Shown: positions 13,441-40,565 of the stretch, one piece after another
Layout of the letters: each line of letters starts with the position of its first letter
Position numbering within the stretch: the stretch's first letter is position 1
Assembly (NCBI GenBank): GCA_964361595.1
Contig: CAYIAX010000001.1
Span: forward strand, 98,128-162,127
Direction of reading: 5' to 3'
Length of the DNA stretch: 64,000 nt
From: an uncultured Candidatus Saccharibacteria bacterium
GTDB taxonomy: Bacteria; Patescibacteriota; Minisyncoccia; UBA6257; 2-01-FULL-56-20
Notes under the pieces: model-generated
Database searches by the model: none
The model's input: the letters and a program-made list of their open reading frames with translations, nothing else
What the model was told of the DNA's origin: nothing
Program-made: the position numbers and the translations under genes

Positions 13441-13447
13441 AATCGCC

Positions 13448-16400: not shown

Positions 16401-18109
16401 AGGATGTAACCTCGCAAGCCGGCTGGAGTTCGAGTAACCAGAGCATCGCGGTGCAGGTTGGCGCGGGACAATTCCGCGGCCTGCAGCCTGGCACGGTAAC
16501 GATCACCGCTTTCTACGGCGGCGCAACCGCCACGGCCAGCTTGACCATTACGGGCACCGGCAACGCTCCCTTCGCGCAAACTTTAGCGGCCACGAATATC
16601 ACGCAGAACTCGGCTGCCTTGAACGGAACGGTGAATCCGAACGGAGCCTCGACTAATTACTACTTCGAATACGGCACGACTGCTTCCTTGGGCCAAGTTA
16701 CGGCTACGGCTACCCTGGGCGGCGGCTCGGTTGCACAAAACATTTTGGCTTTCGTTTCAGGCCTGGCGCCGAACGCGACTTATTTCTTCCGGATCGTAGC
16801 GACGAACAGCTTCGGCACATCGCAGGGCACGATCCTGACTTTCTCGACCGGCACGACCGGCGGCGTTACGGTGCCCACCGTAGTCACGCTTTCGGCCACG
16901 GTTACTTCGCAAACTTCGGCAACCTTGAACGGCCAAGTGAACCCGAATGGTTCGAATGCGCAAGCTTGGTTCGAATACGGCGTGAGCCCCTCGCTCCTTA
17001 ACTTCTCGACGAACGTTACAAACGTAGGCAGCGGCAGTTCCTTCACTAACTTCTCGCAATTCGTTTCGAATCTCCAGCCCGGTACGATTTACTACTACCG
17101 CGCGGTGGCTTCGAATGCTTTTGGCACAAGCCAGGGCCAGGTGCTTACCTTCGTAACCTCGGGTACGGGCGGCGGCACGGCGCCGACGGTGGTAACGCGC
17201 GTTGCGCAATTCGTTTCCAGGAACTCCGCGCTCTTGAACGGCGATGTGAATCCGAATGGCGGACTCACGACCGCCTGGTTCGAGTACGGCGCGACCGTTT
17301 CCTTGGGCTTGCGCACGGTGCCCTTGCCGATGGGTTCGGGTAATGGCGTCCAGCCGCTTTCGGCGGCCGTGACCGGCCTTTTGCCTAATACAACTTATTA
17401 CTTCCGCGCGGTTGCCCAGAATCAATTCGGCACTTCGCAAGGAGCGATTCTTACCTTCCGCACTCTCAATGGAACGACTGGCGGCGGAGGCGGCACGGTG
17501 ATCGTGCGGCCAGTGGCGACCACGACCGGAACGGCTTTAACCTGTATCACTTTGGTCCCGACCTTGAATGTTTCTGAACTTATCCCCGGACGTGAGTTCA
17601 CTTACACCGCGACTTACCGGAACGGCTGTGCCTTTGACCTCATGAATGCGGTCTTAAAGGTGGTCATGCCTGTCGAAACGGATTTCCTTTCGACGAGCTT
17701 CCCCAATTACACGCAAGATGGCCCGACTTTGACATTTACGCTCGGTCGGATTGCCCAAAACGTGGAAGTGGCGGTTAACATCCGCGGCCGCGTCAAGGAT
17801 TTCGCCAAGGAAGGGGATAATCTAATCTTCTCGGCGATTCTTACCTTCAACGACAACCGCAATGCTTTCCAGTCTATCATCGCTTACCTTACTGGTATCG
17901 TGAATGAACCGGGCACGGAAGTGGCGGGAGTGCAGGCGGAAGCCACAAGCACCTTGAGCGCAACGGTGAGCGACGCCTTCAAAGATATTTTGGGCAGCTG
18001 GATCTTCTGGCTTTTCCTCATCCTCCTTATTCTCTTCCTGATCTTCTGGTTCTTATTCCGCCGGCGTGAAGAGGAAGCGAGCGTCCGGAATATCCGCGTG
18101 GAATCCTAG
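13448..18109 (+). CDS. Giant cell-surface protein with a signal peptide, nine tandem Big_2 (bacterial Ig-like) domains, four FN3-like repeats, a DUF11-like domain and a C-terminal TM anchor
   Basis: About 1,550 aa. Repeat units of the form ...AAW(S/T)SSN..(A/V)A..LG.G(Q/R)FRG...G...(V/I)TA.Y.G..(A/G)TA.L(T/N)VTG. The FN3-like units read NYYFEYG...YFFR.VA.N.FGTSQG. The tail is FWLFLILLILFLIFWFLFRRREE. The Met at 13448 is chosen because the signal peptide follows it. Confidence 0.85.
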   Translation: MQNTNRKFGVLFLTVATLSQFVFPGQIFADWTSLNTDPLDYQALQASNSATDPGCSTCWSTSVAGAAPGEQVSFLFYYHNSGEVTAENLRVTIDFWGDSQNLTGSGLISADNASPAFGSAVIHAVPGVENLGLTFAYGKWYPNRDQGPVPVSNSGTDTNVAVNIGNIEPGWNTAGFVVLVFNVTGNATGGGGGGGGTPEGQIYASPNPCTATAGQQLCTTYLTWSTTNAANAEVWVSENGGPEVLNARLPSCSDTQCAASWIQAGHTYEFTLYDNVNGVKNQLSSISVQGISEVRQLTLGYSILKSTYNVGEYPTFVLTGLPASQTVTVAFYSTGPNGRGCSGVGPACVKSINVDASGRGMINGGLFVTEDAGSWNSYYTFEGQQANTIFYAVTSPVVPAATLAINPTTNSVAVGSVAAFTAIYDPDGAGSQTPQNVTAAAAWSSANPAVATSLGTGQFRGVSAGTTQVTAVYAGITATASLTVTGVGCTNPQPTLNITPPSASVSVNNTTGFMAIYDSDGPACSQPTQDVTASAAWTSANPSIASALGNGQFRGVAGGSTQITASYGGLVATATLNVTVIQNPTLTIIPDSATVEANGTMQFVALFDPDGSGSQGAQDVSASAAWSSSNSAIAASLGSGRFRGAAAGGVTVTATYSGATDTAQLTVTAPPCTGASTLAINPANASLNVGQTTSFTAVYDPDGAACPQPAQDVTGSATFTSSNQSVLQQVGSGQFRAIAAGTAIVTVVYQGVAATAVVTVTGVQNPTLTIVPSTQSVPVNQTTNFVALFDPDGTGSQGVQDVTASAVWTSSNSSVAASLGAGRFRGVTGGSVTITATFDGATGTANLTVTGTQNATLTILPQTLTINVNQIGTFVALFDPDGSGAQGTQDVTASAAWTSSNPSVAVALSNGQFRGVTNGTVTVTATYSGTTATATLIISGTGCASGTGTPSLTIIPASNSINANQTISFIALYDSDGASCPQGTQDVTSQAGWSSSNQSIAVQVGAGQFRGLQPGTVTITAFYGGATATASLTITGTGNAPFAQTLAATNITQNSAALNGTVNPNGASTNYYFEYGTTASLGQVTATATLGGGSVAQNILAFVSGLAPNATYFFRIVATNSFGTSQGTILTFSTGTTGGVTVPTVVTLSATVTSQTSATLNGQVNPNGSNAQAWFEYGVSPSLLNFSTNVTNVGSGSSFTNFSQFVSNLQPGTIYYYRAVASNAFGTSQGQVLTFVTSGTGGGTAPTVVTRVAQFVSRNSALLNGDVNPNGGLTTAWFEYGATVSLGLRTVPLPMGSGNGVQPLSAAVTGLLPNTTYYFRAVAQNQFGTSQGAILTFRTLNGTTGGGGGTVIVRPVATTTGTALTCITLVPTLNVSELIPGREFTYTATYRNGCAFDLMNAVLKVVMPVETDFLSTSFPNYTQDGPTLTFTLGRIAQNVEVAVNIRGRVKDFAKEGDNLIFSAILTFNDNRNAFQSIIAYLTGIVNEPGTEVAGVQAEATSTLSATVSDAFKDILGSWIFWLFLILLILFLIFWFLFRRREEEASVRNIRVES
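14650..16565 (+). repeat. Tandem ~210-nt coding repeats (nine copies) that encode the Big_2 domains
   Basis: Near-identical blocks recur, for example ttccgcggcg...accgtaaccgg and gatccggacgg. Confidence 0.8.
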
Positions 18110-18293: not shown

Positions 18294-19217
18294 ATGCGCA
18301 GTTTCTTCAAGCGCTATTTCATTCCGCATCCGGGGAACGATCACAAGCCGCATTTTTTGCGGCCGCGGAACGTGGCCTGGCTTGCGGGCGGCGTTTTGGT
18401 TCTGGAGCTTTTATTCCTATTGAACTGGTACGTCGTGGTTCCGCGCACGGATTTTTTTGCCGCGATTTTGCCCGGCGTACTTGTGGATTTCGCGAATCAA
18501 GAACGGATCGAGGCCAAGCTCAATTCTTTAGCGCCGAACTCGTTGCTCGAGCGGGCCGCAAAGGCGAAGGCCGAGGACATGGCCGCGAAGGGCTATTTCG
18601 CGCACACAAGCCCCGAGGGGCGTACGCCATGGGCTTGGATCAGTGAAGCCGGTTATGAGTTCGTGTATGCCGGAGAGAATCTGGCGGTGAACTTCACGGA
18701 TTCCAAGGACGTGAACGATGCCTGGATGAATTCGCTCGGCCACCGCGCGAATATCTTGAGCGGCAAGTTTACCGAGATCGGCATTGCTACGGCGCAGGGA
18801 ATTTACAAGGGCAGGGAAGCAGTTTTTGTGGTCCAGATGTTCGGCCGCCCGCTGCCGCAGACGGTTGCGTCAAAACCGGCGCCGCCGGCTCCGCGAGTGG
18901 ATACGAAGCCCGCGCCGCAGCCGACCTTCGCGGCCGTTGAGGGCGCGGAAACAATCGAGGAACCCAGCGCGCCGCAAACCGTTGCCCAGCAATCCAGTTT
19001 GGTCGAGAAGACCGTAAGCGCGCCGCGCTCAATTTTGCAGTATATCTACTTCGCGCTCGCGCTGGTTGTCCTCCTCGCCTTGGTGCTTAAGGTTGTGATT
19101 CAAATACGGATCCAGCATCCGGCTTTGATCTTAAGCGGAGTTTTTCTCTTTGTGCTCGTCGGCCAGGTTATTTTAACCAACGAAGGTTTAGTGAAAAGCC
19201 TCTCGGTAATTTTCTAA
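18294..19217 (+). CDS. CAP/SCP/PR-1 domain protein with an N-terminal TM, a Pro/Ala-rich linker and a C-terminal TM
   Basis: CAP signature (YFAHTSPEG...GENLA...W.NS.GHRANIL...EIGIA). A paralog lies at 59297-60145. Confidence 0.75.
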   Translation: MRSFFKRYFIPHPGNDHKPHFLRPRNVAWLAGGVLVLELLFLLNWYVVVPRTDFFAAILPGVLVDFANQERIEAKLNSLAPNSLLERAAKAKAEDMAAKGYFAHTSPEGRTPWAWISEAGYEFVYAGENLAVNFTDSKDVNDAWMNSLGHRANILSGKFTEIGIATAQGIYKGREAVFVVQMFGRPLPQTVASKPAPPAPRVDTKPAPQPTFAAVEGAETIEEPSAPQTVAQQSSLVEKTVSAPRSILQYIYFALALVVLLALVLKVVIQIRIQHPALILSGVFLFVLVGQVILTNEGLVKSLSVIF

Positions 19218-21980: not shown

Positions 21981-22544
21981 TTATTTTCTACTTACCCCCC
22001 TGTTTTTCAGAAGTTCCGCAAATTCTTTTTGCAGGTGCTCGAGCTTGGGATTTATAACCACCTGGCAGTACGGCGCGGTGGAATTCCGTTCATAGTAATT
22101 CCGGTGGTATGCTTCGGCCGGATAAAATTCTTTGAGCGGTTCCACCTCGGTTATCACCGGCGCGCCCAGTTTGTTCGAACTATTCAATTTTGCGATCAAA
22201 TCCTCCGCGGCTTTTTTCTGTTCTTCATTTGCATAAAAAATTGCGGAGCGGTACTGCGTGCCCACGCCGTTGCCCTAGCGGTTCTTCGTCGTGGGATTAT
22301 GCGTGCCGAAAAAAACCGTGAGCAAATCATTATAGCTGATTTCTGCGGGATCAAATTCGATTTTTACCGCTTCGGCGTGGCCGGTACTACCTCCGCAAAC
22401 CTGTTCGTAGGTCGGGTTGGGGACAGCACCTCCTGTGTAGCCAGGCATAACGGAAATTATCCCGCGCAATTCTTTAAAAACCGCTTCCGTGCACCAGAAG
22501 CAGCCCCCGCCGAAAACTGCCGTTTGTGTTTTTTGCTTATCCAT
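21981..22544 (-). pseudogene. msrA: Peptide methionine sulfoxide reductase MsrA interrupted by a single in-frame TAG at 22275-22277, at the position of a conserved Gln codon
   Basis: The upstream half carries the GCFWC active site and ends ...HNPTTKNR*. The downstream half, GNGVGTQYRSAIFY..., continues in the same frame. Canonical MsrA reads ...NRQGND.GTQYRS. Confidence 0.75.
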
Positions 22545-22769: not shown

Positions 22770-24623
22770 TTACAAGAACTCTTCCCTGTAGCACTCCGCG
22801 CAATACACTATCTCCGGGCGTTCGGGCGGGAAAGTTGTTTCAAATTCATTGGGACAAGCCGCATCGCCGTGAAAATGCTTTGAGGCATTTTCATAGGTCT
22901 TGGCGCCATCCTGCGTGCTCGCTGTTTTGCCTTTGCATAAACAATGGCGTTTCCAGATCTGCAGGCCATTGCGCATCGCCCGCCGTTCGAGATGCCTGCA
23001 GCTAGGACAAAGGCGGGGGAGCGCGATATTCATCTGTTTATAAAACGCTAGTTCTTCCGGTGAAATCCGAAAAGCGGTCGAACAGCCGTGGTTGCACCGC
23101 GGCCGCCTTGGTCCTTCGGCGACGGCGGCTCCGCCCTCCTCCTTCGCCGAAGCTTCAACGGTCGAAGCATGCGCGCACCCGATGATCTCTTTAGTGATCG
23201 ACTCCTGAACATCTCGGATATGGTCCGGCAAATCTTCCGGCAGAAGTGTGGTTTTATAATCCCGCGCCGGGGGTTCCTGCCAGCGCAAGCCCTCGGCTTC
23301 AACTTCTTTTCTTGTCTTCGGATACCAGTCAAAGGCAAAAGATTCGTTATAGGCATAAGCGGAAAGTTCGGCGGGAAAGAATTCGCCGTAGCGGTAAACT
23401 CTGCCCTTGGCGTCGCGGTAGGGCATCTCATTCATCTGGGCTTTGATCTTTTTGACCAGCGCAAAATATTCTTCCTTGCTGTACTGCTTGTTAAGGATGC
23501 AATATTGCTTGTTTCTAAGATTAATGCAACCAAAAGCATTAGAACTATTTTCCGACCAATCGCAATACTGTATATTGTTTGAATTGCCACTGCCCGCGGA
23601 AAAAAGACATTTTTGGGATCGCATGGTGTTAGCTGATTCGTAGAGCAATTCCGACAAATCTCCACCTGCTGTGACATCATAACTGTCTTTGAGGTTGAAC
23701 CCTCCGAAAAATAGGTATTTACAGTTCTCTACTCCATTCAAGGCGGAAAAACATACTTGGCAATTTTTGCTGTCGCGGATAATGTCGCCCGAGACGTTTA
23801 CGCTGTTTAAAACGTGCGCATATCGATGCGGAACGGAAGCGTAGAGGTTTTTGAACTTGTCTTTTGCTTCTTCTAGTCGTTTATAGCTGCCTAAATCCCA
23901 ATATTTCATTGCTTCTACATATTCATCTTTCGCAACTCGTTTGTTCCAAATCCAGTATTTTTGCTTGCGGAGACTCGTGCAACCAAAACAATTTGAGCAT
24001 CCTACGCAATCATAAATGAATGACGAGTCTAAGCATTCGGTTGAAAAGTAGCTAAAACTTACGCGATATAGTCGGCTGGAATGCAGAGCTTCATACGCGT
24101 GATCAGAATTGTCGGTTATGTAGGCATCAAAGGAGTTTTTAGATAAGAGGAGGCCATATGAATTTTCTGAATTTTCGGAGAAAAAACACTTGAAGACGAA
24201 ATAGCAGTTTTTGGAGTGATGCGTCGAATTTGAATAGTCGCAATTAATGTTATTGCTACCAATTAAGGCTGGCCTGGGGACGACTTCCATAAGTTTCCTG
24301 TATTGGGCAAAGAACGGCTGATTAAAATCATAATCTCGTCCGTAGGTCATCGGATCCCACCTATCGGATTGCCAGCAGGGGCGGCAATATACGGTAAACG
24401 GACTTCCGGGAGCCTGGACGGTTATAATGGATTTCTTACAGAGATCGCAAGTGCCTTTATAGAGCGTGCGATCCTCGCGCCAGCTCGACCGGCGCCTGTT
24501 CCGGCAGGCGGGGCACCATGTCGGCGGCGGCACGTCGATTTTCTTATAAAAATCAAAGTCGTCCGGTTCTATAACAAAACTTTGTTTACAGCTCTGGCAA
24601 ATTTTTGTTTCTGCGGTACTCAT
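22770..24623 (-). CDS. Cys-rich (~5% Cys) hypothetical protein with matching N- and C-terminal zinc-ribbon-like modules and an internally duplicated core
   Basis: N-terminus CQSCKQSFVIEPDDFDFYKKIDVPPPTWCPACR and C-terminus CNHGCSTAFRISPEELAFYKQMNIALPRLCPSCR. The middle contains repeated C..C/NS-rich segments. Confidence 0.6.
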   Translation of the reverse strand: MSTAETKICQSCKQSFVIEPDDFDFYKKIDVPPPTWCPACRNRRRSSWREDRTLYKGTCDLCKKSIITVQAPGSPFTVYCRPCWQSDRWDPMTYGRDYDFNQPFFAQYRKLMEVVPRPALIGSNNINCDYSNSTHHSKNCYFVFKCFFSENSENSYGLLLSKNSFDAYITDNSDHAYEALHSSRLYRVSFSYFSTECLDSSFIYDCVGCSNCFGCTSLRKQKYWIWNKRVAKDEYVEAMKYWDLGSYKRLEEAKDKFKNLYASVPHRYAHVLNSVNVSGDIIRDSKNCQVCFSALNGVENCKYLFFGGFNLKDSYDVTAGGDLSELLYESANTMRSQKCLFSAGSGNSNNIQYCDWSENSSNAFGCINLRNKQYCILNKQYSKEEYFALVKKIKAQMNEMPYRDAKGRVYRYGEFFPAELSAYAYNESFAFDWYPKTRKEVEAEGLRWQEPPARDYKTTLLPEDLPDHIRDVQESITKEIIGCAHASTVEASAKEEGGAAVAEGPRRPRCNHGCSTAFRISPEELAFYKQMNIALPRLCPSCRHLERRAMRNGLQIWKRHCLCKGKTASTQDGAKTYENASKHFHGDAACPNEFETTFPPERPEIVYCAECYREEFL

Positions 24624-27035: not shown

Positions 27036-27548
27036 GTGGGAGAGCAAATCAGCCTTGCCAAAGCCAAGCCAAACAAGCTTTTTTATGTGGTCGCGACCGC
27101 AGTAGTTTACCGCGAAGCGGACGGGCGCTGCTTGATCTTACGCCGCAGCGAGCGCGAAACCGTGCATCCCGGCAAATGGTCCGTACCGGGAGGAAAACTC
27201 GAATGGGGCGACTTGGAACTTCGACGCTCGCACGCGGCGAATGATCATCTGGAGTGGGACCCCGGCGTGCTAAAACGGCTCGTGAAGCGCGAGGTTAAGG
27301 AAGAAGCCGGTTTAGAAATAAATGATGAAATCCGGCATATCGACGACCTGGTTTTTATCCGTCCGGACGGTATTCCGGTCATGCTCATGAAATTTGCCGT
27401 GCGCTACAAAAGCGGGGAAGTTAAACTCGAACAAAATGCTTTTACCGATTCCGCCTGGATAAATGAAACTGAACTCGAAAACTACAGCTGCATTGGCGGC
27501 GTGCCGGAGGAAATTAGGGCGGCGATCCGCATTTTCAGCAATGCCTGA
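27036..27548 (+). CDS. NUDIX hydrolase
   Basis: Nudix box GGKLEWGDLELRRSHAANDHLEWDPGVLKRLVKREVKEEAGLE (GX5EX7REUXEEXGU). Confidence 0.8.
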   Translation: MGEQISLAKAKPNKLFYVVATAVVYREADGRCLILRRSERETVHPGKWSVPGGKLEWGDLELRRSHAANDHLEWDPGVLKRLVKREVKEEAGLEINDEIRHIDDLVFIRPDGIPVMLMKFAVRYKSGEVKLEQNAFTDSAWINETELENYSCIGGVPEEIRAAIRIFSNA

Positions 27549-27669
27549 CAATCAAAATTTATACGAAGTGGGGATTACAGCTATTGTCGTTAACAAAGAC
27601 GGCAAGTATTTGATTACGCGGCGCTCGCCGGCCAAAAAAAGATTTCCCGGCAAGTGGACACGCAACTAA
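27541..27669 (+). pseudogene. Truncated NUDIX remnant (42 codons) overlapping the stop of the upstream NUDIX gene
   Basis: MPDNQNLYEVGITAIVVNKDGKYLITRRSPAKKRFPGKWTRN* is a typical Nudix N-terminus that ends before the Nudix box. Confidence 0.5.
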
Positions 27670-27673: not shown

Positions 27674-30001
27674 ATGACTGCTTTCCCCTCGGTTCTAGTT
27701 ATTTTCGGCGCCACTGGTGATTTAGCGAGGCGCAAGCTCATCCCTGCGCTTTATCATTTGCACAGGAAAAAGCTTTTACCGCCGCTTTTCCAGATCGTGG
27801 CTTTCTCGCGCCGAGAACTTACAACCGAAGCGTTCCAGGAAATTGCGCGCGAAGCGGTCAAAAAAATTCCCGAAAGCACTCCCGCGGAGACAGAATCATT
27901 TTTGCGGCTCTTCGTTTACATCCAAGGATTTTTCGACCGGAAAACCGGCTATAAGCACTTGGCCGAATTCCTGGGATTTAAGGATAACGAGTGGCAAAAA
28001 TGCTCGAATAAGCTTTTTTATCTCGCGGTCCCTCCGACCTATTACAAAAAAGTTTTTGCCCAGCTTGCGGCCTCGCGGCTCACTGAACCTTGTCCGCCGG
28101 AAGAAGGCTGGACGCGCGTCGCGGTGGAAAAGCCCTTTGGCAAAGATTTGAAGACCGCCGAAGACCTGGACAAGATGCTGGGGCGGCTCTTTAAGGAAGA
28201 CCAGATCTACCGAATCGATCATTATTTAGGCAAAGAGACGATCCAAAACATCCTCGCATTCCGATTTTCCAACTCATTTCTCGATCCTGCTTGGAACAAT
28301 AAATCCGTTCAAGGCATCCAGGTGAGATTTTTGGAAAAATTGGGGCTTGAGGGCCGCGGGGAATTCTATGACGGCGTGGGCGCTTTGCGTGACGTCGGTC
28401 AAAACCACCTTCTGCAGATGCTAGCCTTAATTACCATGCGCAATCCGGGCGTGTTTGATGCGAATGCGGTGCGTCATGCCCGCGCAGAAATATTAAAAGC
28501 TTTGCGTCCGCTCACGAAGCGAAACGTGAACGCGCAGATCTTGAAGGGGCAGTATCAAGGATTCCGGGCAGAAAAGAATATCTCGACGAATTCGCGGACC
28601 GAAACTTATTTCCGGATCAAAACTTTCATTGATCTACCCGAATGGTCTGGCGTGCCGATCCTGCTTGAAGGCGGGAAAGCGCAGGATGTGAATGCCGTGG
28701 ACATCAGCGTTGTTTTCAGGCATAAAATGCCCTGTCTCTGTGTAGGCAAAAAACATTCGCAGAATATTTTGCGTTATGAAGTCCAGCCGCAGGAGCGCAT
28801 TTCGACCTCATTTTGGGTCAAGCAGCCTGGAACCGAAATGCAGATCGAGGAAAAGGATTTCGCTTTTGATTACAAACAAGCTTTTGCCGGGGCGAATATT
28901 TTTGATGCTTATGAGCGTTTACTCATCGATGCGTTTGCGGGCAATCAGACTCTTTTTGTCAGCACGGAAGAAATTATGGCAAGCTGGAAGTTCGTCGATT
29001 CCGTGGAAACCGCTTGGAAGAATTCGGAACTCTTGGCCTACAAAACAGGTTCAGCCGAAGCGCGCAAGGCCGTTTTCCCGGAGGCTGAAATCGGCAAGAC
29101 GATCGGCATGGTCGGTTTGGGTAAAATGGGCAAAAATCTCGCTTTGCATTTGCGTGAGCAGGGCTGGCAGGTCACGGGTTATGATCCGGCGGCTAAATTA
29201 CCGGAGATAAAAATGGCCAAAAATTTGAGCGAACTTACGCGTTCGTTGCCGCAACCCCGCGTGATTTGGCTGATGTTGCCGGCTGGCGCTGGTACGGAAG
29301 CAGGTAAGTTTAAAGAGACTCCGACTGACGCGGTTTTAAAAGAACTCATTCAGTTTTTGGCAAAAGGCGATATCGTGATCGACGGCGGCAATTCTTTTTA
29401 TGAAACTACCGTGCGCCGGGCGGCATTATTCAAAAAACACGGGATTAATTTCTTGGATGTCGGAGTTTCGGGCGGTCCGCAGGGCGCGCGCGCAGGCGCA
29501 TCCTTGATGATCGGAGGCGATGCAAAAGCGTTTACTGCAGTCGAAGAGCTCTTTCGCGATCTGGCCGTCCCGGGCGGATATGTTCACTTAGGGAAGTCAG
29601 GAGCGGGCCATTTTACGAAAATGGTGCATAATGGAATTGAGTACGGAATGATGCAGGCGATTGCCGAAGGCTTCGCCATTATGAAGCAATCGCCCTTTGA
29701 GCTTGATCTGCGCAAAGTGGCGGATATTTATAACCACGGCAGCGTGATCGAATCCCGATTGATCGGCTGGCTCGAAAAAGCCTTACGCGAGCACGGAGAG
29801 AATCTAGAAAAGGTTTCCGGCACCGTGGGGCACTTGGGCGAAGGCGAATGGACCGTGAAAACCGCCAAGAAACTCAAGGTTCCTGTATCGGCTATTGAGA
29901 CCGCTTTCAAGTTCCGTATGCAATCCAAGCGTAACCCGAGTTATATCGGCAAAATTCTTTCGGCCTTGCGGAACCAGTTCGGCGGACACAGCGTTAATTA
30001 A
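27674..30001 (+). CDS. zwf-gnd: Fused glucose-6-phosphate 1-dehydrogenase (Zwf, ~470 aa) and short-form 6-phosphogluconate dehydrogenase (Gnd-like, ~300 aa)
   Basis: N-terminus has VIFGATGDLARRKL, RIDHYLGKE and the Zwf C-terminal YKTGSA(E)... pattern. The C-terminus has IGMVGLGKMGKNLA (Rossmann fold), GGNSFY and VHNGIEYGMMQAIAEGF (6PGDH). A single continuous ORF of 775 aa. Confidence 0.85.
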   Translation: MTAFPSVLVIFGATGDLARRKLIPALYHLHRKKLLPPLFQIVAFSRRELTTEAFQEIAREAVKKIPESTPAETESFLRLFVYIQGFFDRKTGYKHLAEFLGFKDNEWQKCSNKLFYLAVPPTYYKKVFAQLAASRLTEPCPPEEGWTRVAVEKPFGKDLKTAEDLDKMLGRLFKEDQIYRIDHYLGKETIQNILAFRFSNSFLDPAWNNKSVQGIQVRFLEKLGLEGRGEFYDGVGALRDVGQNHLLQMLALITMRNPGVFDANAVRHARAEILKALRPLTKRNVNAQILKGQYQGFRAEKNISTNSRTETYFRIKTFIDLPEWSGVPILLEGGKAQDVNAVDISVVFRHKMPCLCVGKKHSQNILRYEVQPQERISTSFWVKQPGTEMQIEEKDFAFDYKQAFAGANIFDAYERLLIDAFAGNQTLFVSTEEIMASWKFVDSVETAWKNSELLAYKTGSAEARKAVFPEAEIGKTIGMVGLGKMGKNLALHLREQGWQVTGYDPAAKLPEIKMAKNLSELTRSLPQPRVIWLMLPAGAGTEAGKFKETPTDAVLKELIQFLAKGDIVIDGGNSFYETTVRRAALFKKHGINFLDVGVSGGPQGARAGASLMIGGDAKAFTAVEELFRDLAVPGGYVHLGKSGAGHFTKMVHNGIEYGMMQAIAEGFAIMKQSPFELDLRKVADIYNHGSVIESRLIGWLEKALREHGENLEKVSGTVGHLGEGEWTVKTAKKLKVPVSAIETAFKFRMQSKRNPSYIGKILSALRNQFGGHSVN

Positions 30002-30154
30002 TCTAAAAACCGAAGCACGAAGCACGAAGCACGAAATTCGAAACAAATTTAAAATGAAAAAAGCAAATAAAAAAATTAAAAAAATTCCGGATTTCCTAGC
30101 CTCGACTTGCCGTCGAGGCGAGACGGGCGATATTCGGATTTCGAATTTCTGCTT

Positions 30155-31123
30155 ATGATGCGCGACGCGATCAAAAATTTTAATAAGCAGTTTGCGTTCG
30201 AGCCGGTGATTGAATTTCCAAATAAGTTCAGCGTGGCCGAAGGTTTCGTAGTCGTCGGCATGGGCGGTTCGCATTTGGCCGCCGACCTTTTGAAAATTTG
30301 GCAACCCGATCTTGATCTTTATATACATTCCGATTACGGTCTGCCGCCGCTCCCTGCACAAAGGCTGCGGCACAGCTTAATTATTTTAAGTTCATATTCG
30401 GGGAATACAGAAGAGGTGCTCGACGCTTACGAACAAGGTTTGCAGGCCAAGCTTAATCTGCTTGTGATCGCCGCGGGCGGCAAGTTGATCACAAAAGCTA
30501 AGGCCGACGGCGTGTCGCACATCCTTTTGCCCGCGACCGGTATTCAGCCGCGTTCGGCTTTGGGCTACAGCCTTCGCGCCTTTCTCCTTGCTTTAGGCGA
30601 AGAAGGCGCGCTAAAAGAAACTCGCGAGCTCGAAAAAACCTTAAAGCCGGAAGCATTTGAATCTGCCGGCAAGGAATTAGCCGTGCGGCTCAAAGGGTTT
30701 GTGCCGGTAATTTATGCTTCGAGTAAAAACGGGCCGCTTGCTTACAACTGGAAAATCAAATTCAACGAAACCGGTAAAATTCCTGCCTTCTTTAACCTCG
30801 TACCCGAACTCAATCACAACGAAATGACGGGATTTGACGTCAAGGACAGTACGCGCGAGCTTTCGCGTCAGTTCAAGTTTTTATTACTCAAGGACGTAGA
30901 AGATGAGGAGAAAAACCAAAAGCGAATGGAGATTTTGGAGAGTTTATACCGCGCCCGCGGCCTTTCCGTGGAAGCGATCCAGATGAAAGGTAGAAATATT
31001 TTTGAAAAAATGTTCAATTCACTTCTCTTGGCGGATTGGACGGCATTGCACATCGCAGAACAGTACGGCTTAGAGGCAGAACAGGTGCCGATGGTGGAAG
31101 AGTTTAAAAAACTAATCGCTTAA
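30155..31123 (+). CDS. Bifunctional phosphoglucose/phosphomannose isomerase (SIS domain, archaeal-type PGI/PMI)
   Basis: SIS motifs VVGMGGSHLAADLL and ILSSYSGNTEE. The start is set at the ATGATG that overlaps the stop of an upstream 34-codon ORF. Confidence 0.7.
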   Translation: MMRDAIKNFNKQFAFEPVIEFPNKFSVAEGFVVVGMGGSHLAADLLKIWQPDLDLYIHSDYGLPPLPAQRLRHSLIILSSYSGNTEEVLDAYEQGLQAKLNLLVIAAGGKLITKAKADGVSHILLPATGIQPRSALGYSLRAFLLALGEEGALKETRELEKTLKPEAFESAGKELAVRLKGFVPVIYASSKNGPLAYNWKIKFNETGKIPAFFNLVPELNHNEMTGFDVKDSTRELSRQFKFLLLKDVEDEEKNQKRMEILESLYRARGLSVEAIQMKGRNIFEKMFNSLLLADWTALHIAEQYGLEAEQVPMVEEFKKLIA

Positions 31124-31617: not shown

Positions 31618-32232
31618 ATGCCTGAATTTTTCGACGTTTCACTGGCGCTTTCGCCCCGCACAGTTGTCTATCCTGGCAATCCCAAAGTGCGGTTCAAGCC
31701 ACTTAAGAGCAAGACCTCTTACCTAACGGAGATTACGCTCGGATCGCACACCGGCACGCATGTGGACGCGCCGCGGCACGTTTTTAAAAACGGAACGGGT
31801 ATTACCGGATTAAACCTCGGCAAATTTTTTGGACCGTGCCGCGTGCTCGATTTAACCAAATCTAAACAAAGCATTTTAAAAACTGATCTCGAAAAACTCC
31901 AGATCAAACCTGGCGAACGGATACTCGCTAAAACCAGAAATTCTCTGCGCGGTTTCAAAAAATTTTACAGCGATTATATTTATTTGGACGGCGAGGCGGC
32001 AAAGTGGCTCGCAAGCCAGCGGATCGCCTTGTTCGGCATTGATTATTTATCCGTAAAACAGCGAGGGAGTGAAGATGTGCGTCCGCATACAGAACTTTTA
32101 CGAAAGGGGATTCCCATCGTGGAAGGCTTGGACTTGAGTAAAATCAAAGCTGGCAAATACACTTTCGTGGGCTTGCCGCTCAAGTTTGTTGGCCTCGACG
32201 GCGCACCGATCCGCGCTGCGCTTATTGGTTAA
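31618..32232 (+). CDS. Cyclase-family protein (kynurenine formamidase/arylformamidase-like)
   Basis: HTGTHVDAPRH motif. Confidence 0.75.
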   Translation: MPEFFDVSLALSPRTVVYPGNPKVRFKPLKSKTSYLTEITLGSHTGTHVDAPRHVFKNGTGITGLNLGKFFGPCRVLDLTKSKQSILKTDLEKLQIKPGERILAKTRNSLRGFKKFYSDYIYLDGEAAKWLASQRIALFGIDYLSVKQRGSEDVRPHTELLRKGIPIVEGLDLSKIKAGKYTFVGLPLKFVGLDGAPIRAALIG

Positions 32233-37457: not shown

Positions 37458-39203
37458 TTAGGTTACGTTTACCGTATAAATCGTAATCGGTTCTTTTCTG
37501 CCCTTGACGGGCACAGTGCCCAGCGGTATGAATTCGTATTTGCCCTCTAATTTATTTTTGGTTGTTTCGCCGATAATGATGTTTGTCTTATATTCCTTAT
37601 TCAAACCTTCAAGGCGGGAGGCGACGTTCACGGTATCTCCGATCACCGTGTAATCAAACCTGGTCTCCGCGCCGACGTTCCCCACAATCGCCGGACCGGT
37701 ATAAAGTCCGATCCCAATATTGATTTCCGGTTTGCCCTGACTCCTAAGCTCTTCGTTCAGAGTTTTTAATTTCTTGAGCATGCCGAACGAGGCCGCAAGC
37801 GCGTGATCCGCTCCTTCCGGATCGTCAATCGGCGCTCCCCAAAAAGCCATGATCGCGTCGCCGATGAATTTATCCACAACGCCGCCATGAATCAAAACTT
37901 CTTCGGTCATCAAGGTAAAGTAGCGGTTCAAGATTTTTACCAGCTCATGCGGGGTCGTGGCTTCGGAAAGAGTGGTAAAGCCGCGGATGTCAGAGAAAAA
38001 TACGGTTATTTCTTTTTCGACGCCGCCCAACTGCACGAGCGCGGGATTTTTAAGAATTTCTTCGAGCACATCCTTCGAGACATATTTAGAAAATAATTGG
38101 CGCAGGCGGAGCTTTTCCCGGCCTTCGGAGAAGTAGCGGTAAATGATAAGCACGATAGTCGTGAGTCCCCAGGCGAACGTGAGATGGATAAAGTTCACCG
38201 CGACGCCGCGTTCAAAGAGAATTACGGCAACAACGGTTTGCGCGAGTCCGAGGATCAGATTATAGAGAATAGGGCGTAAAGAGTATTTGGACAGCCGAAA
38301 GATGAGCGCGGAGGCGAGCGCGGCGGCCAAGATCCACAAATACATCAAGCTCGAGGCGAGCGGGCGCAAGCGGTAATTCATGAGGAACATATTCGCGATG
38401 TTGGCTTGGATTTCCACGCCGGGCATCTGCGTGCCGCGCGATAAAGGCGTGGGTTTTTCATCATGCAAATCGGCGGCCGTGGAGCCGATAAAAATTATTT
38501 TGTTTTTCAAAAGCGAGCTCAAATCTTCGATCAAGACGCGCGAGAACGGTATTCGTTTGATCGCGCCAGCTTGCGCGGCAAAGACTATGCGTAGCGGCGC
38601 TTGAGGAATTTCCTGCTCAAAGCCGGCTCGGCGCACAGCTTCCAAGGCTAAAGCTAAGATGGTTGATGTGGCATTTTTCTCCGCGAGAATTACAGGCGGG
38701 AATTGCCGCACAACGCCGTCATGATCAAGGATCAGATTCACATGGCCGGTTGTGGTTTGCGGTGAATTAAATTCGGCAAGCGGTGTGAGCAAGCTGCCGG
38801 CGTAGGGGAGAGAAGAATCGAGAAGTAATGGCCTTGCGTGCGCGGGTAGAACGACCGGATAAGAAATTTTCTCTAAAGCCGAAGCCAAAGCATTGTCGTC
38901 CGCGGCGCCGAAGCGGGACTGTTCCGAAAAAATTACATCGATGCCTAATGCTTTCGGTTGATATGTTTCGAGCTTGATCAGGACATCGGCAAAAACTTTC
39001 CGCGGCCACGGCCACTGGCCAATTTTGTTGATCGAATCGGAATCAATGGCAAGAATAACAATATCTCCGTGCAGGGGCTTCGGCGAGAAAAGGAGATCTT
39101 CGAAAAAATTCTCCAGCCCCAGCCAAAGGCCGCCGGCAAACGAGACGGAGACAATTACCGCTGTAAGGATTGCCAGAACGAAAATGGCAAGAGAAGTTCT
39201 CAT
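37458..39203 (-). CDS. CHASE2 sensor-domain adenylate/guanylate cyclase
   Basis: N-terminal TM, an extracytoplasmic CHASE2 region, three TM helices, and a class III cyclase domain (VFFSDIRGFTTLSE...FIGDAIMAFWGAP...GDTVNVASRLE). Confidence 0.85.
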   Translation of the reverse strand: MRTSLAIFVLAILTAVIVSVSFAGGLWLGLENFFEDLLFSPKPLHGDIVILAIDSDSINKIGQWPWPRKVFADVLIKLETYQPKALGIDVIFSEQSRFGAADDNALASALEKISYPVVLPAHARPLLLDSSLPYAGSLLTPLAEFNSPQTTTGHVNLILDHDGVVRQFPPVILAEKNATSTILALALEAVRRAGFEQEIPQAPLRIVFAAQAGAIKRIPFSRVLIEDLSSLLKNKIIFIGSTAADLHDEKPTPLSRGTQMPGVEIQANIANMFLMNYRLRPLASSLMYLWILAAALASALIFRLSKYSLRPILYNLILGLAQTVVAVILFERGVAVNFIHLTFAWGLTTIVLIIYRYFSEGREKLRLRQLFSKYVSKDVLEEILKNPALVQLGGVEKEITVFFSDIRGFTTLSEATTPHELVKILNRYFTLMTEEVLIHGGVVDKFIGDAIMAFWGAPIDDPEGADHALAASFGMLKKLKTLNEELRSQGKPEINIGIGLYTGPAIVGNVGAETRFDYTVIGDTVNVASRLEGLNKEYKTNIIIGETTKNKLEGKYEFIPLGTVPVKGRKEPITIYTVNVT

Positions 39204-39284
39204 TGCGTACTTTTAAAAATTTGAAATTCGAATATCGAAATCCGAAACAATTTTCGAATTTCGTACTTCGTGCTTCGAATTTGT

Positions 39285-40565
39285 TTAGCCATCTTGCCCG
39301 GTCGGGGTCACAAGGTTGGCGTTAACCGAAAAAATCACGGTCTTATCGAAAAATTCTTTTCCCGTAGAGGGATCTTTCCAGGAGCCCACAATTGAACCGG
39401 AGGAAGTTCCGAACTCCGCCACGGAAGCATCCAGGCGGGCGCTAAACACCCCCGGCCTTGTAAACGAGCCGATTAATCCCACAACTTGCCAAAGAGTCCC
39501 CTCGGTAACGGTTTTTTTACTGCCGTCGCTCATCTTGACTACAGCTGTGAATGTGATCGTATCACCCTCCTTGACTCCAGTTAAGGGGTTCGCGGTCGAA
39601 ATTACAAGCGAGACCGCGGTCGGGCCAGAACCGCCGCCAGAGGTCGGGCTAATTACCTTTGTTGAGGTTGTGACTTTAACTTCGATGTTGGTGTTAACTT
39701 CAACTTGCGTACTTGTTACGGCATTTTCCGTACTTTTTTGCAGTTCCTGAAGTTTCAAAAACGGTTCATGAATTATTTTCTGCAGTTCCAAGCGCAGCTG
39801 CGGCCCGCTTAATCCTTGAGCTTCCAACTGCTTTATAAGTTCATCAAGTTTTTTGTCCTCGGCTTCGAAACGCACCACCCAGGATTCTTTAAGCAGGGAA
39901 GCAGGTGCGGCTTTTGCCGCGAAAGTAAGAGTGCCTGCGGAAACGGATGAAACATCAGCGTCTTTGAATTCCAGAACTAAACCGGGCGAAACTAACGCTT
40001 CCTTATCTTGAATTTTTTGGTCGCGCGGGTGGACGGAAACGGAATTTTGCGAGCCTAAGACAGTGGATTTTCCATTAACATAGGCGACGCCGAAGGCGGT
40101 GCCGCGCACCGTTGCCGCCACGTTCGAAGTTTTCACCTCCCATTCGGAGTCGGCGGTAACAAGCGTTAAAATCTTGGACCAGACGCGGCCGGCGCCCAAA
40201 GTAATCCGCACAATCAAACGCTCGTTTTTCCGGTCATAGGATGCTTCATCCACCGTAAGCACGGTGCCGGAATCAATTCTCGCAACGGAACCATCGGGGA
40301 AATAAAGATTTGCCAATCCCTTGGTATCGGTCGTGAGCGTAAGTTTGCCTTTGATTTCGTCCCCGGTCTTTAGCGTAGTTGTTGCACCGGAGGCATTAGT
40401 TGCAGTAACTTTATCTGCCAGCACCTCAATCCAGGGATTTGTTACGGCGCCTTCGCTTACGCCGCTTAACTGGGGGTTTTCACCTTCCTCGCCGCCCGCA
40501 AAATACAAGTAAGCTCCAATTAAGATAACTACGACCAGGAGAATAAGGCCGATGATTTTTTTCAT
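39285..40565 (-). CDS. FecR-domain membrane-anchored protein (paired with the CHASE2 cyclase)
   Basis: N-terminal TM, then a FecR-like region (...SVARIDSGTVLTV...VRITLGAGRVW...VKTSNVAATVRGTAFGV), then a Thr/Ser/Val-rich beta-rich tail. Confidence 0.65.
   Translation of the reverse strand: MKKIIGLILLVVVILIGAYLYFAGGEEGENPQLSGVSEGAVTNPWIEVLADKVTATNASGATTTLKTGDEIKGKLTLTTDTKGLANLYFPDGSVARIDSGTVLTVDEASYDRKNERLIVRITLGAGRVWSKILTLVTADSEWEVKTSNVAATVRGTAFGVAYVNGKSTVLGSQNSVSVHPRDQKIQDKEALVSPGLVLEFKDADVSSVSAGTLTFAAKAAPASLLKESWVVRFEAEDKKLDELIKQLEAQGLSGPQLRLELQKIIHEPFLKLQELQKSTENAVTSTQVEVNTNIEVKVTTSTKVISPTSGGGSGPTAVSLVISTANPLTGVKEGDTITFTAVVKMSDGSKKTVTEGTLWQVVGLIGSFTRPGVFSARLDASVAEFGTSSGSIVGSWKDPSTGKEFFDKTVIFSVNANLVTPTGQDG

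What the first reader, a model, noticed from the sequence alone, without database searches (positions are those of the whole stretch)
27674..30001. Single-ORF fusion of G6P dehydrogenase and 6-phosphogluconate dehydrogenase, next to a SIS-type PGI/PMI
A 775-aa ORF joins a complete Zwf (GATGDLA, DHYLGKE) to a complete short-form 6PGDH (IGMVGLGKMG, VHNGIEYGMMQ). The two halves are joined by a short linker (...SAEARKAVFPEAEIGK|TIGMVGLG...) with no stop or frameshift. The two NADPH-producing dehydrogenases of the oxidative pentose-phosphate branch are thus physically fused. No lactonase is visible nearby. A fusion implies substrate channelling, or reliance on spontaneous lactone hydrolysis, in a minimal metabolism. 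A truncated NUDIX remnant lies immediately upstream.
Basis: partly seen in the sequence, partly recalled or inferred. Interest (0 to 1): 0.5.

Follow-up and report, generated by a model that had tools for sequence, protein, structure and literature searches.

The report
Fused G6PD–6PGDH enzyme, candidate new lactonase
One gene in this groundwater ultra-small (CPR) bacterium really does fuse the first and third enzymes of the oxidative pentose-phosphate pathway, many relatives share the fusion, and a small metal hydrolase two genes downstream is a good untested candidate for the 'missing' middle enzyme.

Summary
The 775-aa ORF at 27674-30001 (+) is real. Its N-half passes the curated Zwf model and its C-half passes the curated short-chain 6PGDH models. 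All catalytic motifs are intact. It is not an assembly artefact. An independent ENA contig carries the identical ORF. At least 120 protein clusters (mostly Patescibacteria/CPR) have the same full-length architecture, and about 12 such clusters remain at 50% identity. NJ trees suggest one origin from an adjacent zwf->gnd pair, with a variable 10-30-aa linker. First, the 6PGDH half has Asp504-Pro-Ala where NADP-specific enzymes have Asn-Arg-Thr, so it probably makes NADH, not NADPH. Second, 'no lactonase' holds only for canonical families. A PF04199 'cyclase/arylformamidase' metal hydrolase (31618-32232) follows zwf::gnd and pgi. Homologues of it sit in operons with zwf, gnd, pgi, tkt or rpiB in many arrangements, including zwf-X-gnd-rpiB. 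In 172 loci it was never found together with Pgl. I propose it as a non-orthologous 6-phosphogluconolactonase (probability about 0.45). I found no paper describing the bacterial fusion. The only reported G6PD-6PGD fusion is in a diatom.

The parts
27674..30001 (+). zwf::gnd fusion ORF, 775 aa (glucose-6-phosphate dehydrogenase fused to short-chain 6-phosphogluconate dehydrogenase)
   Evidence: Identical ORF in an independent ENA contig. At least 120 full-length homologous clusters.
27674..29068 (+). Zwf half (aa 1-465): GATGDLA fingerprint, Arg46 (2'-phosphate-binding position), EKPFG, RIDHYLGKE, catalytic His245 in GQNHLLQ
   Evidence: TIGR00871 483.6 bits against 400.6. Motifs invariant or nearly so in 120 fused homologues. 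Best PDB match 9emm G6PD, E = 4e-96.
29069..29098 (+). Junction/linker (about aa 466-475, ...FPEAEIGKT...), among the shortest in the family
   Evidence: The aa 440-480 segment is 41 residues here, against a family median of 45 and a maximum of 64, and its sequence is not conserved. AF2 pLDDT across the junction is 84-91.
29099..30001 (+). Short-chain 6PGDH half (aa 476-775): GxGxxG, Asp504-Pro-Ala (NAD-type turn), catalytic Lys649/His652/Asn653/Glu656, C-terminal RNQFGGH (RX2FGXH) tail
   Evidence: TIGR00872 335 bits against 297.2 and NF007161 340.5 against 271. Best PDB matches are short-chain NAD+-dependent 6PGDHs 8ihe, 6xeq, 6vpb and 4e21. Residue conservation.
30107..31123 (+). SIS-type bifunctional phosphoglucose/phosphomannose isomerase (alternative start 30155 in the ENA gene call)
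   Evidence: PF10432 131 bits. Best NCBIfam hit NF006423 at 212 bits, below its 254 cut-off. The same gene follows the fusion in L172 and follows gnd or zwf in L026, L040 and L168.
31618..32232 (+). PF04199 'putative cyclase/arylformamidase' metal-dependent hydrolase, 204 aa. Proposed non-orthologous 6-phosphogluconolactonase.
   Evidence: PF04199 85 bits. Metal ligands H44, H48, D50, H54, H157 and E169 are at least 97% conserved in 120 homologues. Operonic with zwf, gnd, pgi, tkt or rpiB in L021, L022, L033, L039, L070, L008, L023, L165-168, L170 and L172. Never found together with Pgl.
27036..27548 (+). Intact NUDIX hydrolase gene, 170 aa
   Evidence: PF00293, E = 1e-11.
27541..27669 (+). 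Truncated NUDIX remnant (42 codons, N-terminal part only, ends 4 nt before the zwf::gnd ATG)
   Evidence: 38% identity over 37 aa to the N-terminus of the neighbouring NUDIX. NUDIX-family IPP-isomerase hit, E = 1.9e-5. Sequence.

Best explanation
The ORF encodes a genuine bifunctional enzyme. Its N-terminal Zwf half oxidises glucose-6-phosphate to 6-phosphoglucono-delta-lactone, most likely with NADP+. Its C-terminal short-chain 6PGDH half oxidatively decarboxylates 6-phosphogluconate to ribulose-5-phosphate, most likely with NAD+. The two halves catalyse steps 1 and 3 of the oxidative pentose-phosphate branch. The fusion therefore fixes 1:1 stoichiometry and co-localisation rather than channelling an intermediate directly. 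It arose inside the CPR/Patescibacteria from an adjacent zwf->gnd gene pair by loss of the stop codon or frame offset. It is now a conserved lineage-specific family with a variable 10-30-residue tether. The 6PGDH is on the C-terminal side, which leaves free the RX2FGXH tail that short-chain 6PGDHs exchange between subunits. In this genome the fusion belongs to a same-strand module, zwf::gnd - pgi - PF04199 hydrolase. That module would convert fructose-6-P to ribulose-5-P plus CO2 plus NAD(P)H. The intervening lactone hydrolysis is most plausibly done by the PF04199 metal hydrolase. Shown here: the architecture, motif integrity, recurrence and gene linkage. Inferred: cofactor preferences, oligomeric state, lactonase activity and the physiological role, which may be reducing power for thiol-based oxidative-stress defence, as suggested by neighbours in relatives.
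For: Domain and equivalog scores are. Catalytic residues of both halves are invariant in 120 fused homologues. The exact ORF occurs in a second assembly. At least 120 clusters at 90% identity cover 97-100% of the query. About 12 full-length clusters at 50% identity exist among 1.84 billion representatives. Fifteen single-ORF fusions were found among 80 species-representative loci, alongside split zwf->gnd neighbours separated by one in-frame stop (L005) or a frame offset (L017, L018, L022). In NJ trees the fused genes form essentially one clade nested among split CPR pairs. The AF2 model has mean pLDDT 87.4 and pTM 0.75. For the cofactor, Asp504-Pro-Ala contrasts with the NR[TS] motif found in 28 of 120 fused homologues, following the rule in PMC8900737. 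The closest solved structures are NAD+-dependent short-chain 6PGDHs. The RX2FGXH tail is invariant and its role is described in PMC12871650. For the module, L172 has glutaredoxin - zwf::gnd - pgi - PF04199 with overlapping genes. L167 has zwf-PF04199-gnd-rpiB and L168 has zwf-PF04199-pgi. L008 has zwf::gnd-tkt-PF04199, and the Brevibacillus and Clostridia loci also carry the gene in the operon. Thioredoxin, AhpC, TrxR and SOD genes are neighbours in L084, L167 and L168.
Against: No activity has been measured for any member. Cofactor prediction from one turn motif is imperfect, since dual-specificity 6PGDHs exist (PMC8900737). The NJ trees have no support values, so 'single origin' is tentative. 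In the window, 494 bp containing promoter-like sites separate pgi from the PF04199 gene, so co-transcription here is not established. The Pgl/PF04199 mutual exclusion in the forward sample is only suggestive (hypergeometric P = 0.08). One sampled PF04199 homologue (L169) is not next to PPP genes. A canonical lactonase could lie elsewhere in the genome, because only 64 kb of a 222-kb contig was visible.
Confidence: 0.85

Rival explanations
1. Assembly or sequencing artefact: two adjacent genes (zwf, gnd) were joined by a missed stop or frameshift at the junction.
For: Close relatives do have split adjacent zwf->gnd genes (L017, L018, L165). The ENA contig has only about 5x coverage.
Against: The identical ORF occurs in two assemblies. 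At least 120 independent clusters from many studies have the same single-ORF architecture, with an alignable junction. The junction DNA has no long homopolymer. The nearest homologues, at 58-59% identity, are all fused.
Confidence: 0.03
2. The C-terminal half is not a 6PGDH but another beta-hydroxyacid dehydrogenase (3-hydroxyisobutyrate or tartronate-semialdehyde reductase-like).
For: It shares the NAD_binding_2 fold. There are weak hits to HIBADH and 2-hydroxy-3-oxopropionate reductase models and to PDB HIBADHs at E about 1e-12.
Against: TIGR01692 scores 64 bits against a cut-off of 291.6, while the 6PGDH models pass their cut-offs. The 6PGD C-terminal domain, the KMVHNGIEYG catalytic motif and the RX2FGXH tail are all invariant in the family. 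PDB 6PGDH hits reach E = 1e-55.
Confidence: 0.03
3. One reading: the organism has no lactonase at all. The fused enzyme relies on spontaneous hydrolysis of the lactone released by the first half, and proximity of the second active site compensates. The PF04199 neighbour is an unrelated amidase.
For: No PF01182 or PF10282 gene in 64 kb. Fifteen of 20 fused loci have neither Pgl nor PF04199 within 2.5 kb. The delta-lactone does hydrolyse spontaneously (PMC3148214 introduction). The known PF04199 activities are amide or lactam hydrolysis and phosphotriesterase (PMC12135135).
Against: In E. coli delta-pgl, intracellular spontaneous hydrolysis does not sustain oxPPP flux (bioRxiv 10.1101/2023.11.29.569206). 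A fused homologue with Pgl immediately downstream exists (L084), so the fusion does not replace a lactonase. PF04199 is linked to PPP genes in at least 7 different gene orders across CPR, Brevibacillus and a Clostridia MAG. No kynurenine-pathway gene was seen in the window.
Confidence: 0.3
4. The PF04199 protein acts in the pentose-phosphate module but not as the delta-lactonase. It might instead repair the dead-end gamma-lactone or hydrolyse another sugar-phosphate derivative.
For: The same context evidence applies. In L026 and L168 the slot after gnd or zwf can also hold pgi, so position alone is not function-specific. L166 has gnd-PF04199 without zwf within 10 kb.
Against: The pathway-order arrangement zwf-PF04199-gnd-rpiB with overlapping genes (L167) and the absence of co-occurrence with Pgl fit the canonical lactonase step best.
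Confidence: 0.15

Closest known systems
G6PD-6PGD fusion of the diatom Phaeodactylum tricornutum (XP_002183714.1; PMC3148214)
   Same: Same two activities joined in one reading frame, skipping the lactonase step. It is the only G6PD-6PGD fusion I found described.
   Different: It is eukaryotic, reported as restricted to one species and its close relatives, and its gene model was disputed. No other such fusion was found in nr in 2011. The window's protein belongs to a bacterial family that nests among split bacterial zwf->gnd pairs, so it is an independent event. It uses a short-chain (about 300-aa, tetramer-type) 6PGDH. I did not compare the sequences directly.
G6PD::6PGL bifunctional enzymes (Plasmodium GluPho, Giardia/Trichomonas G6PD::6PGL, vertebrate H6PD)
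   Same: Fusions of oxidative-PPP enzymes built on a G6PD. In databases they are also often annotated only as 'G6PD'.
   Different: Those join consecutive steps 1 and 2 through a PF01182 lactonase domain. Here no lactonase domain is present and steps 1 and 3 are joined.
Short-chain tetrameric NAD+-preferring 6PGDHs (M. tuberculosis Gnd2 8ihe; Gluconobacter oxydans; Gluconacetobacter diazotrophicus 6xeq; TIGR00872 gnd_rel)
   Same: About 300 aa with no duplicated helical domain. GxGxxG, Asp at the end of beta2, the Lys/His/Asn/Glu catalytic set and the C-terminal RX2FGXH motif are all shared.
   Different: Those are free-standing proteins. Here the N-terminus is tethered to a 465-aa Zwf, which must be accommodated in the oligomer.
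Split adjacent zwf->gnd operons of CPR, Bacillales (Brevibacillus, Fictibacillus) and Actinomycetota
   Same: Same gene order and orthologous halves (35-55% identity). Some differ from a fusion by a single in-frame stop (L005).
   Different: They encode two polypeptides.
Kynurenine formamidase / isatin hydrolase family (PF04199; PDB 4cz1, 4co9, 1r61), for the neighbouring gene at 31618-32232
   Same: Same fold family and the same metal-ligand set (HxxxHxDxxxH, plus a later His and Glu).
   Different: The genomic context is pentose-phosphate genes, not tryptophan catabolism. The proposed substrate is a phosphorylated sugar lactone. I found no report of lactonase activity for this family.

Membership tests
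Glucose-6-phosphate dehydrogenase (Zwf; TIGR00871, PF00479 + PF02781) | Score above the curated equivalog cut-off over the full model | tested here: met
   483.6 bits against 400.6, model positions 3-470 of 486. PF00479 202.6 bits and PF02781 274.4 bits.
Glucose-6-phosphate dehydrogenase (Zwf) | Dinucleotide fingerprint GxxGDLx, EKPxG, RIDHYLGKE substrate motif and catalytic His in GQNHLLQ | tested here: met
   Found at aa 12-18, 152-156, 180-188 and 242-248. They are 98-100% conserved in 120 fused homologues.
Glucose-6-phosphate dehydrogenase (Zwf) | Arg after beta2 that binds the 2'-phosphate of NADP+ (human Arg72 / L. mesenteroides Arg46; positions recalled from my own knowledge) | tested here: met
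   AFSRR with Arg46. This position is Arg in 113 of 120 homologues and aligns with vgfaRR of PDB 9emm. The residue's role is taken from my own knowledge, not tested.
Glucose-6-phosphate dehydrogenase (Zwf) | G6P-dependent NAD(P)+ reduction | not testable with these tools
   Needs an enzyme assay.
Short-chain 6-phosphogluconate dehydrogenase (TIGR00872 gnd_rel / NF007161) | Score above curated cut-offs over the full model; about 300 aa without the duplicated helical domain | tested here: met
   335.0 bits against 297.2 (model positions 3-295 of 299) and 340.5 against 271 (positions 2-298 of 302). Long-form models fail: TIGR00873 scores 200 against 426.7.
Short-chain 6-phosphogluconate dehydrogenase | Catalytic Lys/His/Asn/Glu in KMVHNGIEYG and the C-terminal RX2FGXH substrate-binding motif (PMC12871650) | tested here: met
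   K649, H652, N653, E656, R766, F769, G770 and H772 are invariant in 120 of 120 homologues.
NADP+-specific 6PGDH | Asn-Arg-Thr/Ser at the beta2-alpha2 turn (PMC8900737) | tested here: not met
   The window has Asp504-Pro505-Ala506. Among fused homologues 88 of 120 have Asp and 28 of 120 have NR[TS].
Short-chain 6-phosphogluconate dehydrogenase | Homotetramer with exchange of the C-terminal helix and tail | not testable with these tools
   Only a monomer model was made.
3-hydroxyisobutyrate dehydrogenase / beta-hydroxyacid dehydrogenases | Score above the TIGR01692 (or related) cut-off | tested here: not met
   64 bits against 291.6. Tartronate-semialdehyde reductase scores 63 against 340.75.
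G6PD::6PGL fusions (GluPho / H6PD type) | A PF01182 lactonase domain in the same polypeptide | tested here: not met
   No PF01182 hit in the 775-aa protein.
Bacterial Zwf::Gnd fusion family (defined here) | Single ORF with Zwf N-terminal and short-chain 6PGDH C-terminal, recurring in independent genomes | tested here: met
Bifunctional PGI/PMI (SIS type), gene 30107-31123 | PF10432 C-terminal SIS domain and NCBIfam equivalog score | tested here: inconclusive
   PF10432 at 131 bits passes. NCBIfam models are the best hits but fall below their cut-offs (212 against 254; 199 against 213.9).
Pgl/DevB or YbhE 6-phosphogluconolactonase anywhere in the window | A PF01182 or PF10282 domain | tested here: not met
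   No such hit in 47 ORFs. No tblastn or HMM hit with CPR Pgl probes.
PF04199 cyclase / kynurenine formamidase family, gene 31618-32232 | Pfam gathering score and the metal-ligand motif | tested here: met
   85.3 bits against 23.1. H44, H48, D50, H54, H157 and E169 are conserved. PDB 1r61 E = 1e-33 and KynB 4cz1 E = 4e-26.
Kynurenine formamidase (functional assignment) | Association with tryptophan or kynurenine catabolism genes | tested here: not met
   No such genes among the window ORFs or in the 8 sampled contexts. The neighbours are zwf, gnd, pgi, tkt, tal and rpiB.

The most novel reading that the evidence does not exclude
The conserved CPR-type PF04199 'cyclase/arylformamidase' protein (window 31618-32232) is a previously unrecognised, non-orthologous 6-phosphogluconolactonase. 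It is a metal-dependent analogue of Pgl/DevB and YbhE. Together with the Zwf::Gnd fusion and PGI it forms a compact three-gene oxidative pentose-phosphate module. This would fill the 'missing lactonase' in many Patescibacteria and some Firmicutes (Brevibacillus). In addition, the fused enzyme would yield one NADPH and one NADH per glucose-6-phosphate.
Probability: 0.45. Interest if true: 0.68.

Novelty: new variant of a known kind. Interest (0 to 1): 0.5.

Why it matters
CPR/Patescibacteria are judged metabolically from gene inventories. The oxidative pentose-phosphate branch is scored as patchy in them (PMC7304191), and the fused gene is annotated only as 'glucose-6-phosphate dehydrogenase'. 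The 6PGDH step is therefore easily missed in pathway reconstructions. Recognising the fusion corrects those reconstructions.

The predicted NAD+ preference of the second half changes the redox bookkeeping to NADPH plus NADH. The recurrent neighbours (glutaredoxin, thioredoxin reductase, AhpC, SOD) point to a role in oxidative-stress defence in organisms thought to be mainly fermentative.

If the PF04199 protein is a lactonase, it would be a new enzyme family for a textbook reaction. It would also explain why many genomes with zwf and gnd appear to lack pgl. A cultivable Brevibacillus carries the same operon, so the idea can be tested directly.

Tried and rejected
- **Literature searches for a bacterial or CPR Zwf-Gnd fusion**. 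None was found. The only fusion reported is the diatom one, and Jaffe et al. 2020 do not mention a fusion.
- **Metagenome-contig scan with the fused alignment**. The tool chose generic patterns (EYGMMQ[AS], DHYL[GA]K[ED][TM]), so it returned mostly ordinary Zwf loci and added few fused ones.
- **L037.** The first open-frame screen flagged it as fused. The phmmer map showed adjacent gnd->zwf genes with a long upstream open stretch, so it is not a fusion.
- **Many tblastn 'full-length' matches** (Chloroflexota, Acidobacteriota, Mycobacterium and others). These are two adjacent genes, not fusions.
- **Recent horizontal transfer of the fused gene into this genome.** There is no compositional signal: gene GC is 0.505 and flanks are 0.494.
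- **The alpha/beta hydrolase at 40613-41281** has a weak dienelactone-hydrolase hit. I considered it as a lactonase candidate and set it aside, because it showed no recurrent linkage to zwf/gnd.
- **Unbiased clustering of neighbours** showed that the context of the fusion is otherwise poorly conserved.
- **Pgl versus PF04199 exclusivity** is only suggestive (P = 0.08) and is not claimed as significant.
- **Two family-scan calls failed** on wrong coordinates. One translation of the msrA region was in the wrong frame.
- **No fold search was run.** Sequence-level matches to solved structures were unambiguous.
Full report
**1. Observation**

The window holds a single ATG-initiated ORF at 27674..30001 (+) of 775 aa.
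- Pfam places G6PD_N (aa 9-192), G6PD_C (194-466), NAD_binding_2 (476-631) and the 6PGD C-terminal domain (645-754) on it.
- The N-half exceeds NCBI's curated equivalog cut-off for Zwf (TIGR00871, 483.6 against 400.6 bits).
- The C-half exceeds the cut-offs of both short-chain 6PGDH models (TIGR00872, 335.0 against 297.2; NF007161, 340.5 against 271).
- The 3-hydroxyisobutyrate dehydrogenase model reaches only 64 bits against a cut-off of 291.6.
- The junction (...GSAEARKAVFPEAEIGKTIGMVGLG...) is in frame, and its DNA has no homopolymer longer than 4 nt.
- The downstream gene (30107-31123) is a SIS-type PGI/PMI.
- The 42-codon ORF at 27541-27669 is the N-terminal stump of a second NUDIX gene. 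It is 38% identical over 37 aa to the start of the intact NUDIX gene just upstream.

All factual parts of the finding are therefore confirmed.

**2. Not an artefact**

The exact protein is recorded on a 222-kb NCBI contig and also on an independently named 13.9-kb ENA contig from a groundwater sample.

More importantly, at least 120 clusters (at most 90% identical to each other) cover 97-100% of the query at 50-59% identity. They are 764-842 aa long and carry all four domains. Sources that name them call them Parcubacteria, Wildermuthbacteria, Andersenbacteria, Minisyncoccia or Patescibacteria, and always just 'glucose-6-phosphate dehydrogenase'.

An exhaustive HMMER pass over 1.84 billion representatives at 50% identity finds about 12 full-length fused clusters plus fragments. 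By comparison, 4,048 Zwf/Gnd representatives reach E <= 1e-30. The fusion is therefore real and recurrent, but it is a restricted lineage.

**3. Origin**

Among 80 species-representative loci, 15 have the single-ORF fusion. Many others that tblastn reported as 'full-length' are in fact two adjacent genes:
- zwf->gnd in other CPR, in Brevibacillus and Fictibacillus, and in Mycobacterium and other Actinomycetota;
- gnd->zwf in Chloroflexota, Acidobacteriota, Ignavibacteria and others.

In NJ trees of each half and of the concatenate, CPR sequences form one group. It has a basal grade of split zwf->gnd pairs and one large, almost entirely fused clade. These trees have no support values, so the result is indicative only.

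The few split members inside the fused clade differ by a single in-frame stop (L005) or a frame offset at the junction (L017, L018, L022). Three fused loci with 64-68% GC, labelled Actinomycetes, Coriobacteriia and Slackia, nest inside the CPR clade. Their gene GC equals that of their flanks, which suggests an old transfer rather than contamination.

The linker is variable in sequence and length: the aa 440-480 segment spans 41-64 residues, and the window's is the shortest.

**4. Mechanism of the fused protein**

Every catalytic or substrate-binding motif I checked is invariant or nearly so across 120 fused homologues.
- For Zwf these are GxxGDL, EKPFG, RIDHYLGKE and His245.
- For 6PGDH these are GxGxxG, GVSGG, Lys649/His652/Asn653/Glu656 and the C-terminal R766-x2-F-G-x-H772.

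An AlphaFold2 model built on 44 homologues is confident for both halves (mean pLDDT 87.4, pTM 0.75). Only an internal loop at 539-544 scores below 50.

The published work on short-chain 6PGDHs shows that they are tetramers. Their C-terminal helix and RX2FGXH tail reach into a neighbouring subunit's active site (PMC12871650; PMC8900737). Placing 6PGDH at the C-terminal end of the fusion keeps that tail free, which gives a rationale for the observed domain order. This is an inference.

*Cofactors.* The Zwf half keeps the Arg after beta2 (Arg46; Arg in 113 of 120), consistent with NADP+ use. The role of that residue is from my own knowledge.

The 6PGDH half has Asp504-Pro-Ala at the beta2-alpha2 turn. 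NADP-specific 6PGDHs have Asn-Arg-Thr there, and Asp hinders the 2'-phosphate (PMC8900737). Within the fused family 88 of 120 have Asp and 28 of 120 have NR[T/S], so cofactor preference appears to have switched within the family. The closest solved structures are NAD+-dependent short-chain enzymes (8ihe Gnd2, 6xeq, 6vpb, 4e21).

I therefore predict NADPH from the first half and NADH from the second, not two NADPH.

*Channelling.* The two halves catalyse steps 1 and 3. The lactone must be hydrolysed before the second half can act, so the fusion cannot channel directly. What it guarantees is stoichiometry and proximity.

**5. The lactonase question**

No PF01182 (Pgl/DevB) or PF10282 (YbhE) protein is encoded among 47 ORFs covering the whole 64-kb window. 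CPR Pgl probes find nothing either. However, the fusion as such does not replace a lactonase. In L084 a fused homologue is followed 14 bp later by a PF01182 gene and then by a thioredoxin-reductase-like gene. Several split CPR loci also have pgl directly after gnd.

*Forward sample.* An unbiased clustering of neighbours showed that the most recurrent neighbour of zwf/gnd in CPR-type loci is a PF04199 'putative cyclase' protein. The window has one at 31618-32232, after pgi. With an HMM, it lies 15-158 bp downstream on the same strand in L021, L022, L033 (fused), L039 and L070. L070 is a Clostridia MAG with the order gnd-zwf-X, the slot where pgl usually sits.

- Five are embedded in pentose-phosphate gene strings: zwf-gnd-X (L165, otherwise syntenic with the window), gnd-X (L166), zwf-X-gnd-rpiB with overlapping genes (L167), zwf-X-pgi (L168), and tkt-tal-pgi-X (L170).
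- One (L171) is cut by the contig end.
- One (L169) has only a ROK kinase nearby.

*Further loci.*
- L172 reproduces the window's string as a tight operon: ArsR-type regulator, glutaredoxin, zwf::gnd, pgi, X, with the pgi stop overlapping the X start.
- L008 has zwf::gnd-tkt-X.
- Brevibacillus sp. SIMBA_040 has zwf-gnd-gfo-X.

*Counts.* Over 172 distinct loci, Pgl lies within 2.5 kb of zwf/gnd in 39, PF04199 in 14, and both in none. In the forward sample alone (164 loci: 39, 9 and 0) the chance of no overlap is 0.08, so exclusivity is suggestive and not proven.

*The protein itself.* It keeps all six metal ligands of the kynurenine-formamidase/isatin-hydrolase family (H44, H48, D50, H54, H157, E169), plus several conserved basic residues. 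It is 56-68% identical across more than 120 CPR clusters. Its closest solved relatives are uncharacterised 'metal-dependent hydrolases' (1r61, 8hmo) and KynB.

Known activities of the family are formamidase, lactam (isatin) hydrolase and phosphotriesterase (PMC12135135). I found no report linking it to 6-phosphogluconolactonase. In E. coli delta-pgl, intracellular spontaneous hydrolysis does not carry oxPPP flux (bioRxiv 10.1101/2023.11.29.569206), which argues that an enzyme is needed.

I therefore propose this PF04199 subfamily as a non-orthologous lactonase, with a probability of about 0.45. The alternatives are a different role in the same module, or no lactonase at all.

**6. Caveats for this window**
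- 494 bp separate pgi from the PF04199 gene. This gap contains sigma-70-like matches and a doubtful minus-strand ORF, so co-transcription is not shown here.
- Only 64 kb of the genome is visible, so a canonical pgl could lie elsewhere.

**7. Comparison and novelty**

The only G6PD-6PGD fusion I found in the literature is in the diatom Phaeodactylum. It was reported in 2011 as unique in nr (PMC3148214). The well-known fusions (Plasmodium GluPho, Giardia/Trichomonas, H6PD) join G6PD to the lactonase instead.

The bacterial family described here is an independent event. It uses a short-chain 6PGDH, is widespread in Patescibacteria, and is present but under-annotated in public databases. The enzymology of each half is ordinary.

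I rate it a new variant of a known kind. The fusion itself is of moderate interest. The candidate lactonase raises the interest because it is directly testable.

Noticed in passing
window 31618-32232 (+); also L167 10001-10618, L172 3916-4527, L023 13414-14046: A PF04199 'cyclase/arylformamidase' metal hydrolase is 56-68% identical across more than 120 CPR clusters and is repeatedly operonic with zwf, gnd, pgi, tkt and rpiB. It is a candidate non-orthologous 6-phosphogluconolactonase.
   Followed up: yes
window about 21981-22544 (-): The ENA gene calls split a methionine-sulfoxide reductase (PF01625 PMSR) into two adjacent ORFs of 94 and 89 aa (L001 2107-2391 and 2401-2670). This may be a frameshifted or interrupted msrA. 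My one translation attempt was in the wrong frame.
   Followed up: partly
window 22770-24623 (-): A 617-aa cysteine-rich protein has many CxxC pairs and only a weak treble-clef zinc-finger hit (PF13451). It is conserved next to the locus in a relative (L082 1446-3278, 610 aa). No family assignment.
   Followed up: no
window 48535-60145: A DNA-damage cluster on one strand: dinB-like IMS polymerase (44447-45613), uvrB (45963-48089), lexA (48535-49185), uvrA (55017-57734), uvrC (58101-59300). It is interrupted by a low-GC island (GC 0.38-0.43 at 48-54 kb) that carries a type I restriction-modification system (hsdM-like 49185-51167, hsdS 52623-53987). The island looks like an insertion between lexA and uvrA.
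   Followed up: no
window 13364-18109 (+): A 1,581-aa protein with Big_2, fibronectin-III and purple-acid-phosphatase-N-like domains lies in a stretch of raised GC (0.57). It is probably a surface or adhesion protein. Two CAP/SCP-domain proteins lie nearby (18294-19217, 59297-60145).
   Followed up: no
window 37458-40565 (-): A CHASE2-sensor adenylate/guanylate cyclase (37458-39203) lies next to a FecR-domain protein (39285-40565). This is cyclic-nucleotide signalling in a small-genome bacterium.
   Followed up: no
L012, L014, L015 (fused gene at about 9.9-12.3 kb in each): Fused zwf::gnd genes occur in 64-68% GC contigs labelled Actinomycetes, Coriobacteriia and Slackia. Their gene GC equals that of the flanks, and they nest inside the CPR fused clade in NJ trees. 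This suggests an old CPR-to-Actinomycetota (or reverse) transfer.
   Followed up: partly
L084 7170-14718; L167 945-8226 and 15099-15584; L168 4715-7872 and 13369-14349; L172 346-582: In relatives, zwf/gnd genes are flanked by glutaredoxin, thioredoxin, AhpC, DsbD, thioredoxin-reductase-like and superoxide dismutase genes. This hints that the oxidative PPP in these CPR supplies reductant for oxidative-stress defence.
   Followed up: partly
L170 5025-5810: A 261-aa protein consists only of the G6PD C-terminal domain (PF02781, 264 bits, no N-terminal NAD-binding domain). It heads a tkt-tal-pgi-PF04199 string on a 1.4-Mb contig. It may be a truncated zwf or a mis-called start.
   Followed up: no
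window 7466-7539 (+): The only tRNA in the window (tRNA-Lys, anticodon UUU) overlaps the mechanically listed start of the uridine-kinase/PRK-family ORF (7481-8242). The true start of that gene is therefore probably further downstream.
   Followed up: no
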